IMG/VR virus record: IMGVR_UViG_3300025889_000073
Span: 1-64,000 of that record
Reading direction: 5' to 3' (one strand)
DNA: 64,000 nucleotides
Origin: a virus
Below are positions 40,779 to 60,599 of the stretch, piece after piece (positions within the stretch are counted from its first letter, which is position 1; each line of letters starts with the position of its first letter). The notes below the pieces were generated by a model. The model had not been told where the DNA came from and made no database searches. It saw only the letters and a list, made by a program, of their open reading frames with translations. Position numbers and translations under genes: made by a program.

Positions 40779-40854
40779 GCCGGTTTAGCTCATTTGGTAG
40801 AGCAACGCACTTGTAATGCGTAGGTGGTCAGTTCGAATCCGACAACCGGCACCA
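40779..40854 (+). tRNA. tRNA-Thr(UGU)
   Basis: Cloverleaf; loop CT-TGT-AA; TTCGAATC; encoded CCA. Confidence 0.95.
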
Positions 40855-40932
40855 TATTAAAGGAGAAATAAAAATGACAATTGAAGAATATTGGAAGTGG
40901 ATACACGAAAACGTACAATAAAAATTTGTTAT

Positions 40933-41017
40933 GCGACTGTGGCGGAATAGGTAGACGCAACAGACTTAAAATCTGTCGGCTTAGGCCGTGCCGGTTCGAT
41001 TCCGGCCAGTCGTACCA
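40933..41017 (+). tRNA. tRNA-Leu(UAA)
   Basis: Long variable arm; loop CT-TAA-AA; encoded CCA. Confidence 0.95.
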
Positions 41018-41020
41018 ATT

Positions 41021-41097
41021 CTGACCATAGTTCAGCTGGATAGAACAACAGCCTTCTAAGCTGTGGGTCGGGGGTTCGAATCCCTCTGGTCAGGCCA
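41021..41097 (+). tRNA. tRNA-Arg(UCU)
   Basis: CTGACCA/TGGTCAG acceptor stem; loop CT-TCT-AA; CCA. Confidence 0.95.
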
Positions 41098-41099
41098 AT

Positions 41100-41126
41100 T
41101 CCTCGATAGCTCAGTTGGTAGAGCAG
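41100..41126 (+). pseudogene. Truncated tRNA (5' acceptor strand plus D-arm only)
   Basis: TCCTCGA-TA-GCTCAGTTGGTAGAGC-AG, running directly into tRNA-Pro. Confidence 0.7.
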
Positions 41127-41127
41127 T

Positions 41128-41204
<77 letters not shown>

Positions 41205-41208
41205 TTAT

Positions 41209-41283
41209 GTGAATGTGGTCGAATGGTTAGGCACCGGATTGCAAATCCGGACTATGCAGGTTCGAATCCTGTCATTCACTCCA
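41209..41283 (+). tRNA. tRNA-Cys(GCA)
   Basis: Loop TT-GCA-AA; U discriminator; CCA. Confidence 0.95.
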
Positions 41284-41284
41284 G

Positions 41285-41360
<76 letters not shown>

Positions 41361-55349: not shown

Positions 55350-55425
55350 ACATAAAAAAAGTGCTTGCCAAATGGTCTTGTTTGTGTTAGAATTATGTCC
55401 TCTAAATTAATTAAGGAGTTTTATT

Positions 55426-55851
55426 ATGGCTCGTGGTAAATCTACGAAACTGAAACCTTTCGAAAAGCTGTTGACCGTTATGGTCTCTGGCAAACCGGTG
55501 ACGCTTGAAGAAATTGAAGCAACACTCGGCAACGAAATTCATATGTATCGAATTTCAACCTATATTTGGCATATTAAAACATTTGCCAATGGCGTTGTAA
55601 AGGCTATCAAAGATGGCCGAAAAGTTACTGCTTATCAGGTCACAAATGTTGACAAGATTAAGGAGTATTTCCGTATTACTGGTATTGACCCTAGCAAATT
55701 TGTTCCTGGTCAAGCCGACAAGATTGTTCGTGCTAAGAAAAAAGTTGTTTCTAGCAAAGTGAATAAACTTGTAGATTTGAAGGCGAAGCCTCAACAAAAA
55801 AATGTTGTTGAAACCGAGGACATTGAAGTCGTTGAGGTTACTGAGCAATAG
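55426..55851 (+). CDS. Basic protein with winged-helix-like N-terminus
   Basis: VTLEEIEATLG...YRISTYIWHI...KDGRKVTAY; AAGGAG SD. Confidence 0.5.
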   Translation: MARGKSTKLKPFEKLLTVMVSGKPVTLEEIEATLGNEIHMYRISTYIWHIKTFANGVVKAIKDGRKVTAYQVTNVDKIKEYFRITGIDPSKFVPGQADKIVRAKKKVVSSKVNKLVDLKAKPQQKNVVETEDIEVVEVTEQ

Positions 55852-56028
55852 ACGTTCCGCTTTGTTAGCGGATACTATGACCCGTAGGATGAGAAGTGGG
55901 GTGACTCCCAAGGGTGGTTCCAGTCTTACCAAACTGGCGCTGGCAATGCGAGAACGGTCCCTGTCGGGGAGCGGGTGGAAGGAGCGTATGCTCTATAATT
56001 ACCGCCGGGGGACGCAGAGCATTTTTTT
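55852..56028 (+). ncRNA. Candidate structured non-coding RNA
   Basis: GC-rich intergenic island with several nested hairpins ending in a stem plus T-tract. Confidence 0.6.
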
Positions 56029-56039
56029 ATAGGGTTGTT

Positions 56040-56342
56040 ATGAACGAAAAACAAGAAGAAGTTTTACGAATAGCACAAGAGGAATGCGCTGAAGTGATAC
56101 AGGCTATTTCCAAAGTGTTTAGATTTGGATTGCACACAGAACATAATGGCAAAACAAACCAATCAAGCTTGACTGATGAAGTTGGCGATTTACTTTGTAT
56201 GATTGAATTATTTTCCGAATTTGGTGTTTTGGATAAAAACAGAATTAAATTTTGTGCTTTGAAGAAACGTGAGAAACTGGAAAAGTGGTCGAGTATTTTT
56301 AAAAATGAAATTGAAGAATATCGTGCCGCCGGCGTTATCTAA
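56040..56342 (+). CDS. MazG-like nucleotide pyrophosphohydrolase
   Basis: EECAEVIQAISK...DEVGDLL. Confidence 0.75.
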   Translation: MNEKQEEVLRIAQEECAEVIQAISKVFRFGLHTEHNGKTNQSSLTDEVGDLLCMIELFSEFGVLDKNRIKFCALKKREKLEKWSSIFKNEIEEYRAAGVI

Positions 56343-58066: not shown

Positions 58067-58660
58067 GTGAATATTTTTTATCTTGACGCCAACCCTAAAA
58101 TCTGTGCTGAAATGCATTGTGATAAACATTGTGTAAAGATGATTATCGAATATGCACAACTTATGTCAACAGCACACCGCATACTCGATGGTCAAGAATA
58201 TATGGGTTTGACGGCCAATGGTCGTAAGATTCGGCGCTGGCGTATGGATGATGAAAAACTAGAAAATGGTTTGATGAAGGCATCACACATAAATCATCCG
58301 TCAAACATCTGGCTTCGTCAAAGTGGTGAAAACTATGATTGGCTTTTAAAGATGTGGTTGCATTTGATTTCTGAATACACACATCGTTATGGTAAACAAC
58401 ACGCTTGTGAAAAGTATATTGATTTTTTGTATTTCAAACCAAAAAATATTCCAAACGGAAAATTTACTGAGCCGACGCCAGCAATGCCAGATGACTGTAA
58501 GATTACCAATGATTCTATAGCGTCCTATCATAAATATTACATAGACAAGAAAATTTCTTTCGCAAAGTGGACTAAACGTGAAGTTCCACTTTGGTTTAAA
58601 AATGGAATTGGAATAAATATTAATAATGCCAACTTACAGTTTCTACAACAATCAAACTAA
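58067..58660 (+). CDS. Pyrimidine-dimer DNA glycosylase-like protein (DenV family)
   Basis: MNIFYLD...HCDKHCVKM, HINHPS..W, EYTHRYGK.H. Confidence 0.8.
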   Translation: MNIFYLDANPKICAEMHCDKHCVKMIIEYAQLMSTAHRILDGQEYMGLTANGRKIRRWRMDDEKLENGLMKASHINHPSNIWLRQSGENYDWLLKMWLHLISEYTHRYGKQHACEKYIDFLYFKPKNIPNGKFTEPTPAMPDDCKITNDSIASYHKYYIDKKISFAKWTKREVPLWFKNGIGININNANLQFLQQSN

Positions 58661-59858: not shown

Positions 59859-60217
59859 AAAGTATACTGGCAGCGCTTTTGATTATGTTGCCGGTGATTG
59901 GTTTTGCTGAACCAAAAAAGAAAGAAGAATCTAAGCCGTTAATGATGAATGTGGAAACAATGTGCAATGATTCATCATTATTAGATTTGGTTATGTTTAA
60001 ATATGGTGAAATGCCTGTTATAAAAATGGAATCAATTCGTAGTTTAACTAAAGGAGATGATACTACGTCATTTGTTTCAGTTTTATTTGTTAATCAAAAA
60101 ACAAGAAGTTGGACTTTGATTGAAGAACGAGGACCCTTATATTGTGTTATTGGTGTTGGAGTGAACATTCGAATTTTTTCTGATAAACAATCTGAGGAAC
60201 AAACTAAATATTATTGA
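59855..60217 (+). CDS. Secreted hypothetical protein
   Basis: Signal peptide; N..T.SWTLIE...CV.G.G. Confidence 0.55.
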   Translation: MKSILAALLIMLPVIGFAEPKKKEESKPLMMNVETMCNDSSLLDLVMFKYGEMPVIKMESIRSLTKGDDTTSFVSVLFVNQKTRSWTLIEERGPLYCVIGVGVNIRIFSDKQSEEQTKYY

Positions 60218-60220
60218 TAT

Positions 60221-60570
60221 ATTGCTGTATGAAGCAATGAGAAAGGTGTTCTGGACGGCGGTTCGATTCCGCCCACCTCCACCATAAGCACACTGGCCTT
60301 TGGGTGTAGTCCGTAAGGATCAAGAGATAATTTCAAAGACCCCATATAACCAAGTTAGTGTGCTTTTGATGGGGGTGTACAGGTTTCGACAGGGCAATGA
60401 GTAACAGAGTGGACAGCAGGGCAATGTGAAAGCCCTTAGGGTTGAGACTACTCGGCCGAAGAAGCAAAAAAAGTAAACGCAAACGATGAAGTTTACGCAC
60501 TAGCTGCCTAATAAAAGGTAAGCAGGAGTTTTTGGAGGTTTTGACTTGGCAACAGAACAAAACCTCCTTT
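60221..60570 (+). ncRNA. ssrA: Circularly permuted (two-piece) tmRNA
   Basis: 3' piece (T-arm GGTTCGATTCC, CACCTCCACCA) ends at 60284, before the 5' piece GGGGGTG...TTCGAC at 60371; G3.U70 pair; tag ANDEVYALAA* at 60479-60511. Confidence 0.92.
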
Positions 60571-60599
60571 CGGAAAAGTATTGAAAAGAGTGAAAAGAT

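What the first reader, a model, noticed from the sequence alone, without database searches (positions are those of the whole stretch)
55852..56028. Candidate novel structured ncRNA
Seen: about 175 nt, markedly GC-rich in an AT-rich genome, intergenic. Pairings: TCCGCT/AGCGGA; ACCC...GGGT enclosing TGGGG-TGAC-TCCCA; CCAGT/ACTGG; CGCT...AGCG enclosing TCCC/GGGA; GGTGG...CCGCC; and a mutually exclusive ATGCTCT/AGAGCAT stem followed by a T-tract upstream of a MazG-like gene. I cannot assign it to a known family. Inference: an independent phage RNA, or a switch with an alternative terminator.
Basis: partly seen in the sequence, partly recalled or inferred. Interest (0 to 1): 0.7.

Follow-up and report, generated by a model that had tools for sequence, protein, structure and literature searches.

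The report
Uncatalogued folded RNA of T4-like phages
The GC-rich stretch is a real, intricately folded non-coding RNA gene from an undescribed family that uncultured T4-like phages usually carry among their tRNA genes; its job is unknown, and it is not a switch for the neighbouring MazG gene.

Summary
The flagged stretch (window 55850-56022, + strand) is a genuine structured RNA. A covariance model finds 88 distinct homologs in viral and metagenome contigs. Of the base-pair cells, 94% are paired, against 34-53% in slid controls, and 34 of 47 pairs show compensatory changes.

No Rfam 15 family matches, and neither the literature searches nor a blastn search of 50,697 cultured phage records found it. 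The frame is not conserved: 78 of 85 homologs have stops in all forward frames.

In about half of the homologs the RNA fills a slot inside a phage tRNA array. It is always on the tRNA strand, starting right after a tRNA 3' end and ending 1-10 nt before the next tRNA. All six carriers tested, at one copy each, have a T4-type capsid gene.

It is therefore an independent stable RNA, not a MazG riboswitch. Its function is unknown. This scan had already met the family in other phage genomes.

The parts
55850..56022 (+). Whole RNA as matched by covariance model R1 (173 nt, one of the shortest family members)
   Evidence: 167.3 bits, E 7e-58, model positions 1-199 of 199. It is the only match in the window and in the whole 171,728-bp genome.
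55852..55855 (+). Conserved 5' leader (R)ACGU. In tRNA arrays this follows directly on the CCA end of the preceding tRNA.
   Evidence: C at model position 4 in 82 of 88 homologs. The model starts 0 nt after the tRNA 3' end in 27 of 40 cases.
55856..55872 (+). P1 hairpin: UCCGC (55856-55860) pairs with GCGGA (55868-55872); loop 55861-55867
   Evidence: helix 1: all 5 pairs show changes on both sides; 95.5% of cells paired.
55875..55887 (+). P2 hairpin: CUAU (55875-55878) pairs with GUAG (55884-55887); loop GACCC (55879-55883)
   Evidence: helix 2: 99.4% paired; CG/GC/AU alternation at two pairs (41/37 and 40/36/10).
55880..55915 (+). Pseudoknot: ACCC (55880-55883, in the P2 loop) pairs with GGGU (55912-55915)
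   Evidence: helix 3: 98.2% paired; rare compensatory CG-to-UA changes (3 and 1 sequences). Variants ACUC/GAGU and AUCC/GGAU seen.
55888..55896 (+). Conserved purine-rich joiner GAUGAGAAG between P2 and P3
   Evidence: invariant or nearly invariant columns.
55897..55910 (+). P3 hairpin: UGGGG (55897-55901) pairs with UCCCA (55906-55910); loop UGAC
   Evidence: helix 4: all 5 pairs show changes on both sides; 83.5% paired.
55864..55905 (+). Loop-loop kiss: GUUA (55864-55867, P1 loop) with UGAC (55902-55905, P3 loop)
   Evidence: Found by mutual information; 87.8% paired against 8-31% when slid by 1-2 columns; 72 cells changed on both sides. At least six complementary loop classes, such as AUCA/UGAU, GUAACG/CGUUAC and GUCAC/GUGAC.
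55916..55937 (+). Invariant GGUU, then P4 hairpin: CCAGU (55920-55924) pairs with ACUGG (55933-55937); 8-nt loop CUUACCAA (consensus CNNACCNA)
   Evidence: helix 6: 98.9% paired; AU changes to GC in 20 sequences.
55938..55950 (+). P5 hairpin: CGC/GCG with a near-invariant 7-nt loop UGGCAAU (55941-55947)
   Evidence: helix 7: 100% paired; CG changes to UA in 15 sequences.
55957..56013 (+). P6 long-range helix: GUCCCU (55957-55962) pairs with GGGGAC (56008-56013). An invariant CG/CG step follows (55965-55966 with 56006-56007).
   Evidence: helix 8: all 9 pairs show changes on both sides; 90.9% paired. The CG/CG step was predicted by RNAalifold but never varies, so it is untested.
55971..56005 (+). 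P7: GCGG (55971-55974) pairs with CCGC (56002-56005). It encloses the conserved internal loop GUGGAA / AUAAUUA.
   Evidence: helix 9: 98.5% paired; second pair CG 55, UA 25, AU 2.
55981..55994 (+). P8, here a minimal hairpin: GGAGC/GCUCU with loop GUAU. In 37 of 86 relatives this arm is longer and carries a K-turn-like motif.
   Evidence: helix 10: all 4 pairs show changes on both sides. for the K-turn-like pattern count.
56014..56028 (+). 3' tail GCAGAGCA (family consensus RAGCA), then U-tract 56022-56028, the likely transcript end in this phage
   Evidence: Read from the sequence. The tail is conserved in the alignments. The terminator scan did not call it because the preceding stem has a long loop, so termination here is inferred.
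55365..55393 (+). Sigma-70-like promoter (TTGCCA, 17 nt, TAGAAT, with TG) upstream of ORF 55426-55851. It is the nearest candidate start for the transcript that would carry the RNA.
   Evidence: 10 of 12 matches. This is a consensus match only, and its link to the RNA is inferred.

Best explanation
This is a stand-alone gene for a stable, compactly folded non-coding RNA of about 173 nt on the + strand. It belongs to an uncatalogued family carried once per genome by uncultured T4-like phages.

Shown: the RNA folds into a 5' core and a 3' arm. In the core, hairpins P1 and P3 kiss through their loops, the loop of P2 forms a pseudoknot with GGGU, and two hairpins (P4, P5) display near-invariant loops. 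The 3' arm is a long, variable stack of P6, P7 and P8.

Shown: in about half of its relatives the RNA occupies a slot in a tRNA array. It is on the tRNA strand, begins directly after the CCA of one tRNA and ends 1-10 nt before the next.

Inferred: in arrays its ends are made by the host's tRNA-processing enzymes (RNase P on the 3' side, tRNA 3'-end maturation on the 5' side), as for phage T4's species 1 and 2 RNAs. In this phage the gene has moved out of the array. It is probably transcribed together with ORF 55426-55851 and ends at the U-tract 56022-56028.

Inferred, weakly: it acts in trans. Its invariant loops and purine-rich junctions would serve as a binding surface for a conserved partner connected with tRNA, translation or host defence, or for copies of itself.
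For: Homologs and structure:
- 88 distinct homologs score 60-220 bits.
- 94.4% of pair cells are paired against 34-53% in slid controls; 34 of 47 pairs have double-sided changes; 0 of 500 shuffles reach the observed values.
- RNAalifold on an unfitted MAFFT alignment recovers P1, P2, P4, P6, P7 and P8.
- The loop kiss was found blind by mutual information and then confirmed.
- G-U pairs are frequent on the + strand (for example UG 42 and GU 63). This fixes the transcribed strand and argues for RNA rather than DNA.

Genomic context:
- 73 of 123 loci have a tRNA within 150 nt, always on the same strand.
- Among the 88 distinct RNAs, 45 abut a tRNA within 30 nt and 28 do so on both sides. The upstream gap is 0 nt in 27 of 40, the downstream gap is 1-10 nt, and the median inter-tRNA spacing is 7 nt.
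- One copy in each of six large genomes, all with T4-type gp23.
- Within this phage's lineage the RNA lies on either side of mazG.
- No frame is conserved.
Against: - Transcript ends, stability and processing are therefore all inferred.
- In this window the RNA starts immediately after a stop codon and has no promoter of its own. It could remain a 3' UTR rather than a separate molecule.
- No partner was found: no protein family accompanies it in more than 15 of 88 loci.
- The invariant loops cannot be tested by covariation.
- The trans-acting binding role has no direct support.
Confidence: 0.85

Rival explanations
1. It is a cis-acting leader (riboswitch or attenuator) of the MazG-like gene. 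Ligand binding would choose between the folded RNA and the ATGCTCT/AGAGCAT terminator stem.
For: In this phage's lineage the RNA usually ends 8-36 nt before mazG. In this copy a 7-bp stem followed by seven U overlaps P8. The RNA is as ornate as a riboswitch aptamer.
Against: - About half of the family sits inside tRNA arrays with a tRNA, not an ORF, downstream.
- In the L033 and L116 types the RNA lies downstream of mazG.
- The competing stem is absent from close relatives such as L123 and L143.
- Some mazG-adjacent copies have no U-tract at all (L120, L125).
Confidence: 0.04
2. It is a self-cleaving or processing ribozyme that cuts at its own 5' edge. That would create the CCA 3' end of the preceding tRNA and free itself from the array transcript.
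For: The conserved RNA begins exactly at the nucleotide after the tRNA 3' end in 27 of 40 array copies. It has a pseudoknotted, highly conserved core with invariant purine-rich joiners, as many ribozymes do.
Against: - No self-cleaving ribozyme family of Rfam matches any of three members tested at E up to 10.
- Stand-alone copies such as this one keep the full core although no tRNA precedes them.
- Tight spacing is normal between tRNA genes in these arrays (median 7 nt), so host enzymes are sufficient.
Confidence: 0.06
3. It is protein-coding: ORF 55802-56032 (76 aa), or a GTG-started N-terminal extension of MazG (55914-56342).
For: Both frames are open in this copy.
Against: - 78 of 85 homologs have stop codons in all three forward frames.
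- Element lengths are spread evenly over all residues modulo 3.
- Insertions are whole hairpins.
- No Pfam or PHROG hit for the 76-aa product.
- Substitutions are compensatory in helices.
Confidence: 0.01
4. It is a DNA-level signal, such as a promoter (it contains TATAAT at 55994-55999), an attachment site or a replication/packaging signal near tRNA genes.
For: A conserved CTATAAT lies inside the element. tRNA neighbourhoods often hold integration sites.
Against: - Covariation keeps G-U pairs on one strand only, and the element always shares the tRNA strand.
- The TATAAT varies to TATAGT, TATAGG and ACAAAA in homologs.
- It has no -35 partner and is followed 23 nt later by the U-tract.
- The carriers tested have T4-type capsid genes, and T4-type phages are known as lytic (general knowledge, not tested here).
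Confidence: 0.02

Closest known systems
GOLLD (RF02032) and ROOL (Rfam accession not checked here), the large ornate RNAs of phages and prophages
   Same: They are encoded by phages, are often near tRNA islands, are elaborately folded with pseudoknots, have no known protein partner and have unknown function (PMC12286853).
   Different: They are 500-800+ nt and are shown to form homo-oligomeric cages. This RNA is 155-290 nt. It has no sequence or model similarity to them (no Rfam hit at E up to 10), and self-assembly is untested.
Phage T4 species 1 and species 2 RNAs (rnaC, rnaD)
   Same: They are small stable RNAs of unknown function encoded in line with the tRNA genes of a T4-type phage, directly after tRNA-Arg on the same strand.
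   Different: There is no similarity. Model R1 finds nothing in the T4 tRNA region or the whole T4 genome. The T4 sequences lack the conserved motifs of this family.
Bacterial Y RNAs (YrlA, RF02553) with Ro60/Rsr
   Same: They are structured non-coding RNAs found in some phage and bacterial tRNA/RNA-repair neighbourhoods.
   Different: No Rfam match. There is no terminal stem formed by the 5' and 3' ends, and no TROVE/Ro60 gene in this genome.
T-box leader RNAs (RF00230)
   Same: There is a superficial resemblance: a K-turn in many members, an exposed UGGN motif (the UGGC in the P5 loop) of the kind that pairs with tRNA NCCA ends, and GGGUGG...ACCGC words.
   Different: No Rfam match. The RNA is not a leader of an aminoacyl-tRNA-related gene, has no specifier loop, and the motifs are arranged differently. 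The resemblance is recalled from memory and is a lead only.

Membership tests
Any Rfam 15 family (4227 models, including riboswitches, ribozymes, RNase P, tmRNA, SRP, 6S, GOLLD, ROOL, raiA, HEARO, Y RNA, T-box) | Match to the family covariance model at or near its gathering score | tested here: not met
   window; L172 member; L105 member. Nothing overlaps the element at gathering score. At E up to 10 only two or three chance-level weak matches overlap the L172 and L105 members (C/D-box snoRNA models at 10-12 bits, a permuted-tmRNA fragment at 9.5 bits, E 2-9). Otherwise only the flanking tRNAs and unrelated weak matches outside the element appear.
tRNA / tmRNA | Cloverleaf or tRNA-like domain recognised by ARAGORN or Rfam RF00005 | tested here: not met
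   ARAGORN finds 7 tRNAs and one tmRNA in the genome, none at 55.8-56.0 kb; no tRNA-clan match there.
RNase P RNA | P4 pseudoknot with conserved regions CR-I and CR-V, as captured by RF00009, RF00010, RF00011, RF00373 and RF02357 | tested here: not met
   no match at E up to 10. The element's pseudoknot (ACCC/GGGU) has a different topology.
Riboswitch or attenuator leader of mazG | Fixed position in the 5' UTR of the regulated gene across homologs | tested here: not met
   about half of the copies lie between tRNAs, and two lineages have the RNA downstream of mazG.
Riboswitch or attenuator leader of mazG | Conserved mutually exclusive terminator/antiterminator pairing | tested here: not met
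   ATGCTCT/AGAGCAT is not kept in close relatives (L123, L143). Several copies lack a U-tract.
Phage T4 rnaC / rnaD | Sequence or structure similarity to the T4 species 1 or 2 RNAs | tested here: not met
Phage T4 rnaC / rnaD | Encoded in line with tRNA genes of a T4-type phage, same strand, tRNA-like spacing | tested here: met
   for the family. In this window itself the copy lies 14.5 kb from the tRNA cluster.
GOLLD / ROOL (ornate phage RNAs near tRNA islands) | Homo-oligomeric cage formation | not testable with these tools
   Needs native gels, SEC or cryo-EM.
Y RNA (YrlA) with Ro60 | Co-occurrence with a TROVE-domain (Ro60/Rsr) gene | tested here: not met
   no TROVE match in the complete genome; the control genomes ring.

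The most novel reading that the evidence does not exclude
The RNA is an active player and not only a scaffold. It could be an RNA-only device that binds tRNA 3' ends or elbows. It could be a decoy or sponge that neutralises a host anti-phage factor aimed at tRNAs, or sequesters a nucleotide alarm signal. It could also be a small self-assembling particle of the ROOL/GOLLD type. Its invariant UGGCAAU and CNNACCNA loops would be the working surface.
Probability: 0.15. Interest if true: 0.9.

Novelty: new variant of a known kind. Interest (0 to 1): 0.68.

Why it matters
Phage tRNA islands keep turning up large, conserved RNAs whose roles nobody knows (T4 species 1 and 2, GOLLD, ROOL). This family adds a compact example of about 170-270 nt. 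It has an unusually well-determined fold: eight covarying helices, a pseudoknot, a loop-loop kiss, and an optional K-turn and GNRA hairpins. It occurs at one copy per genome across environmental T4-like phages of 172-335 kb.

Its small size makes it tractable for probing, crystallography or cryo-EM, and pull-downs. It could therefore open the long-standing question of what these tRNA-associated phage RNAs do. The family is absent from Rfam 15 and was not found in cultured phages, so it would also be a useful new model for annotating viral metagenomes.

Tried and rejected
- Cultured phages: blastn of three family members against 50,697 phage records gave only chance 21-26-nt hits. Model R1 found nothing in T4, KVP40, P-SSM2, HTVC008M or Aeh1.
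- Bacterial genomes: none of the 120 pattern matches in genome contigs is a true homolog.
- Literature: motif strings and keyword searches found no description. The supplement of the IMG/VR structured-RNA survey (PMC10690425) is not held, so I cannot exclude that the family is among its 8,495 unnamed candidates. The Minerva preprint concerns other RNAs.
- Protein partner: clustering all ORFs in 88 loci gave no family present in more than 15 loci. The top clusters are ordinary phage genes. There is no TROVE or L7Ae gene in the genome.
- Extra pairings considered but unsupported:
  - GGUU with the AACC of the P4 loop. Three pairs never vary and the fourth is broken in half the sequences (helix 5).
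  - The 5' leader RAAC with GUU(C). It is compatible in about 80% of sequences but shows no covariation.
  - The 3' tail AGCA with UGC of P5 or P8. No covariation.
- A tRNA-like cloverleaf reading of P1-P3 was dropped because the P2 loop is tied up in the pseudoknot next to the junction.
- An internal TATAAT as a promoter was rejected (variants).

Full report
**What is in the window.** The stretch 55852-56028 is 55% G+C, against roughly 30-40% in most flanking windows. It lies between a 141-codon ORF of no known family (55426-55851) and a 100-codon MazG-like ORF (56040-56342; Pfam MazG, PHROG 4856). The window is the first 64 kb of a complete 171,728-bp IMG/VR virus record. That record has a T4-type major capsid gene about 66% identical to those of pelagiphage HTVC008M and cyanomyophages. 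Rfam 15 finds six tRNAs and a permuted tmRNA elsewhere in the window. It finds nothing in this stretch even at E up to 10. Single-sequence folding is unremarkable (z = -0.86 on the + strand), so the case rests on comparative evidence.

**Homologs.** nhmmer against loci fetched through the two neighbouring proteins found the first relatives. One of them lies downstream rather than upstream of mazG. The conserved word AACYGGCGYTGGCARTRCGA then retrieved 92 viral contigs. A covariance model (R1) built from a 20-sequence MAFFT alignment (A1) matches 88 distinct sequences at 60-220 bits. The window copy scores 167 bits at 55850-56022. It is the only copy in the genome. Five other large carriers (172-335 kb) also hold one copy each, and all have T4-type gp23.

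The family was not found in cultured phages. blastn of three members against 50,697 records gave only chance hits. R1 is silent on T4, KVP40, P-SSM2, HTVC008M and Aeh1. Searches of the paper library for its motifs and context found no description. The supplement of the one large IMG/VR survey of candidate structured RNAs is not available here.

**Structure.** On the 88-sequence alignment, 94.4% of pair cells are standard pairs, against 34-53% when partners are slid by 1-3 columns. Thirty-four of 47 pairs change on both sides, in 724 cells, and no shuffle in 500 reaches the observed values. That alignment is fitted to the model. However, RNAalifold on the unfitted MAFFT alignment independently returns P1, P2, P4, P6, P7 and P8 with compensatory changes.

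The fold in window coordinates:

| Element | Coordinates |
|---|---|
| P1 | 55856-60 / 55868-72 |
| P2 | 55875-78 / 55884-87 |
| Pseudoknot (P2 loop ACCC with GGGU) | 55880-83 / 55912-15 |
| P3 | 55897-901 / 55906-10 |
| GGUU (invariant) | 55916-19 |
| P4, loop CUUACCAA | 55920-24 / 55933-37 |
| P5, loop UGGCAAU | 55938-40 / 55948-50 |
| P6 (long-range) | 55957-62 / 56008-13 |
| P7 | 55971-74 / 56002-05 |
| P8 | 55981-85 / 55990-94 |
| Tail GCAGAGCA, then seven U | tail 56014-56021; U-tract 56022-56028 |

A mutual-information scan of all column pairs ranked the known helices first. It also exposed one contact I had not modelled: the P1 loop pairs with the P3 loop. At least six complementary loop classes exist, such as AUCA/UGAU, GUAACG/CGUUAC and GUCAC/GUGAC, with GUUA/UGAC in the window. 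For this contact 87.8% of cells are paired against 8-31% when slid by one or two columns.

Peripheral elements come and go. Thirty-seven of 86 members carry a K-turn-like motif in P8. Thirty-four carry an insertion after GGUUC, usually with a GNRA hairpin. The window copy is a minimal form. Frequent G-U pairs fix the transcribed strand as +.

CGCT/AGCG and the local TCCC/GGGA hairpin are wrong: these strands belong to P5, P7 and P6. GGTGG/CCGCC is off register, since the second pair of GCGG/CCGC alternates CG, UA and AU. ATGCTCT/AGAGCAT exists here but not in close relatives.

**Not coding.** Seventy-eight of 85 homologs have stops in all three forward frames. Lengths are spread evenly modulo 3. 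The 76-aa product matches nothing.

**Context.** Of 123 loci, 73 have a tRNA within 150 nt and 46 have one on both sides. The tRNA is on the RNA's strand in every case. Among the 88 distinct RNAs, 45 abut a tRNA within 30 nt. The model begins 0 nt after the tRNA 3' end in 27 of 40 cases. The next tRNA begins 1-10 nt after the model ends. Inter-tRNA spacing in the same arrays has a median of 7 nt. The flanking tRNA identities vary widely. The RNA therefore behaves like one more gene of the array.

The remaining copies, including this one, stand among protein genes. In this phage's lineage the RNA is next to mazG, usually 8-36 nt upstream, but downstream in the L033 and L116 types. Here it starts directly after the stop codon of ORF 55426-55851. 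The nearest promoter-like site is at 55365-55393. Co-transcription with that ORF and termination at the U-tract are my inference.

**What it does.** Nothing identifies a function. No protein family accompanies the RNA in more than 15 of 88 loci, and the genome has no Ro60 or L7Ae gene. T4's own array-embedded RNAs rnaC and rnaD are unrelated.

The best-supported account is an independent, stable, trans-acting RNA whose ends in arrays are made by tRNA-processing enzymes. This rests on its position. The universally conserved part is the 5' core plus P4 and P5 with their invariant loops, which would be the working surface. This rests on the conservation pattern. The partner is unknown.

A mazG riboswitch, a coding region and a DNA signal are each contradicted by the data above. 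A self-cleaving ribozyme acting at its 5' edge is not excluded but has no positive support.

**Comparison and novelty.** The nearest known kind is the set of phage RNAs found beside tRNA islands: T4 species 1 and 2, GOLLD and ROOL (PMC12286853). This RNA shares their context and their mystery, but not sequence, size or any model match. It is a new family within that loosely defined kind.

Notes from this scan show that the same family was already met in other phage genomes (e1-5342656 followed up; e1-5669031 and e1-5669063 as first-reader notes), with the same conclusion of unknown function. My analysis agrees. It adds the loop-loop kiss, the corrected helix registers, the T4-type carrier range and the mazG-side arrangement.

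**Limits.** E-values from R1 are rough. The large-variant subgroup (L106, L115, L126 and similar) has a different 3' arm that the model aligns poorly.

Noticed in passing
window 60167-60584 (+): The phage encodes a circularly permuted (two-piece) tmRNA. Rfam tmRNA_permuted scores 133 bits and beta_tmRNA 102 bits. ARAGORN reads the tag ANDEVYALAA.
   Followed up: partly
window 40779-41360 (+): Cluster of six tRNA genes (Thr, Leu, Arg, Pro, Cys, Met). A seventh tRNA (Gly) lies at genome position 151985. The structured RNA is not in this cluster, unlike in most relatives.
   Followed up: partly
L112:1795-1900, L131, L192, L109 (between the RNA and tRNA-Gln): A second conserved non-tRNA segment of about 90-100 nt follows this RNA in several arrays. 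It is closed by a GCUGGAUG...CAUCCAGC stem. It may be another array-embedded RNA family.
   Followed up: no
window 55426-55851 (+): A 141-aa ORF with no Pfam or PHROG match and a basic C-terminal tail. It is conserved in 21 viral contigs and lies upstream of the RNA only in this lineage, at up to about 700 nt, so it is not a universal partner. A strong sigma-70-like promoter precedes it (55365-55393).
   Followed up: partly
window 58067-58660 (+): ORF matching PHROG 624 (E 1e-55), with a weak Pfam Pyr_excise (pyrimidine-dimer glycosylase, DenV-like) match. It is syntenic with the RNA-mazG block in many relatives.
   Followed up: no
L105, L129, L138, L151 and others (insertion after GGUUC): Larger family members insert two hairpins into P4. 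One is a conserved 4-6-bp stem capped by a GAAA tetraloop, which suggests a tetraloop-receptor contact. The window copy lacks it.
   Followed up: partly
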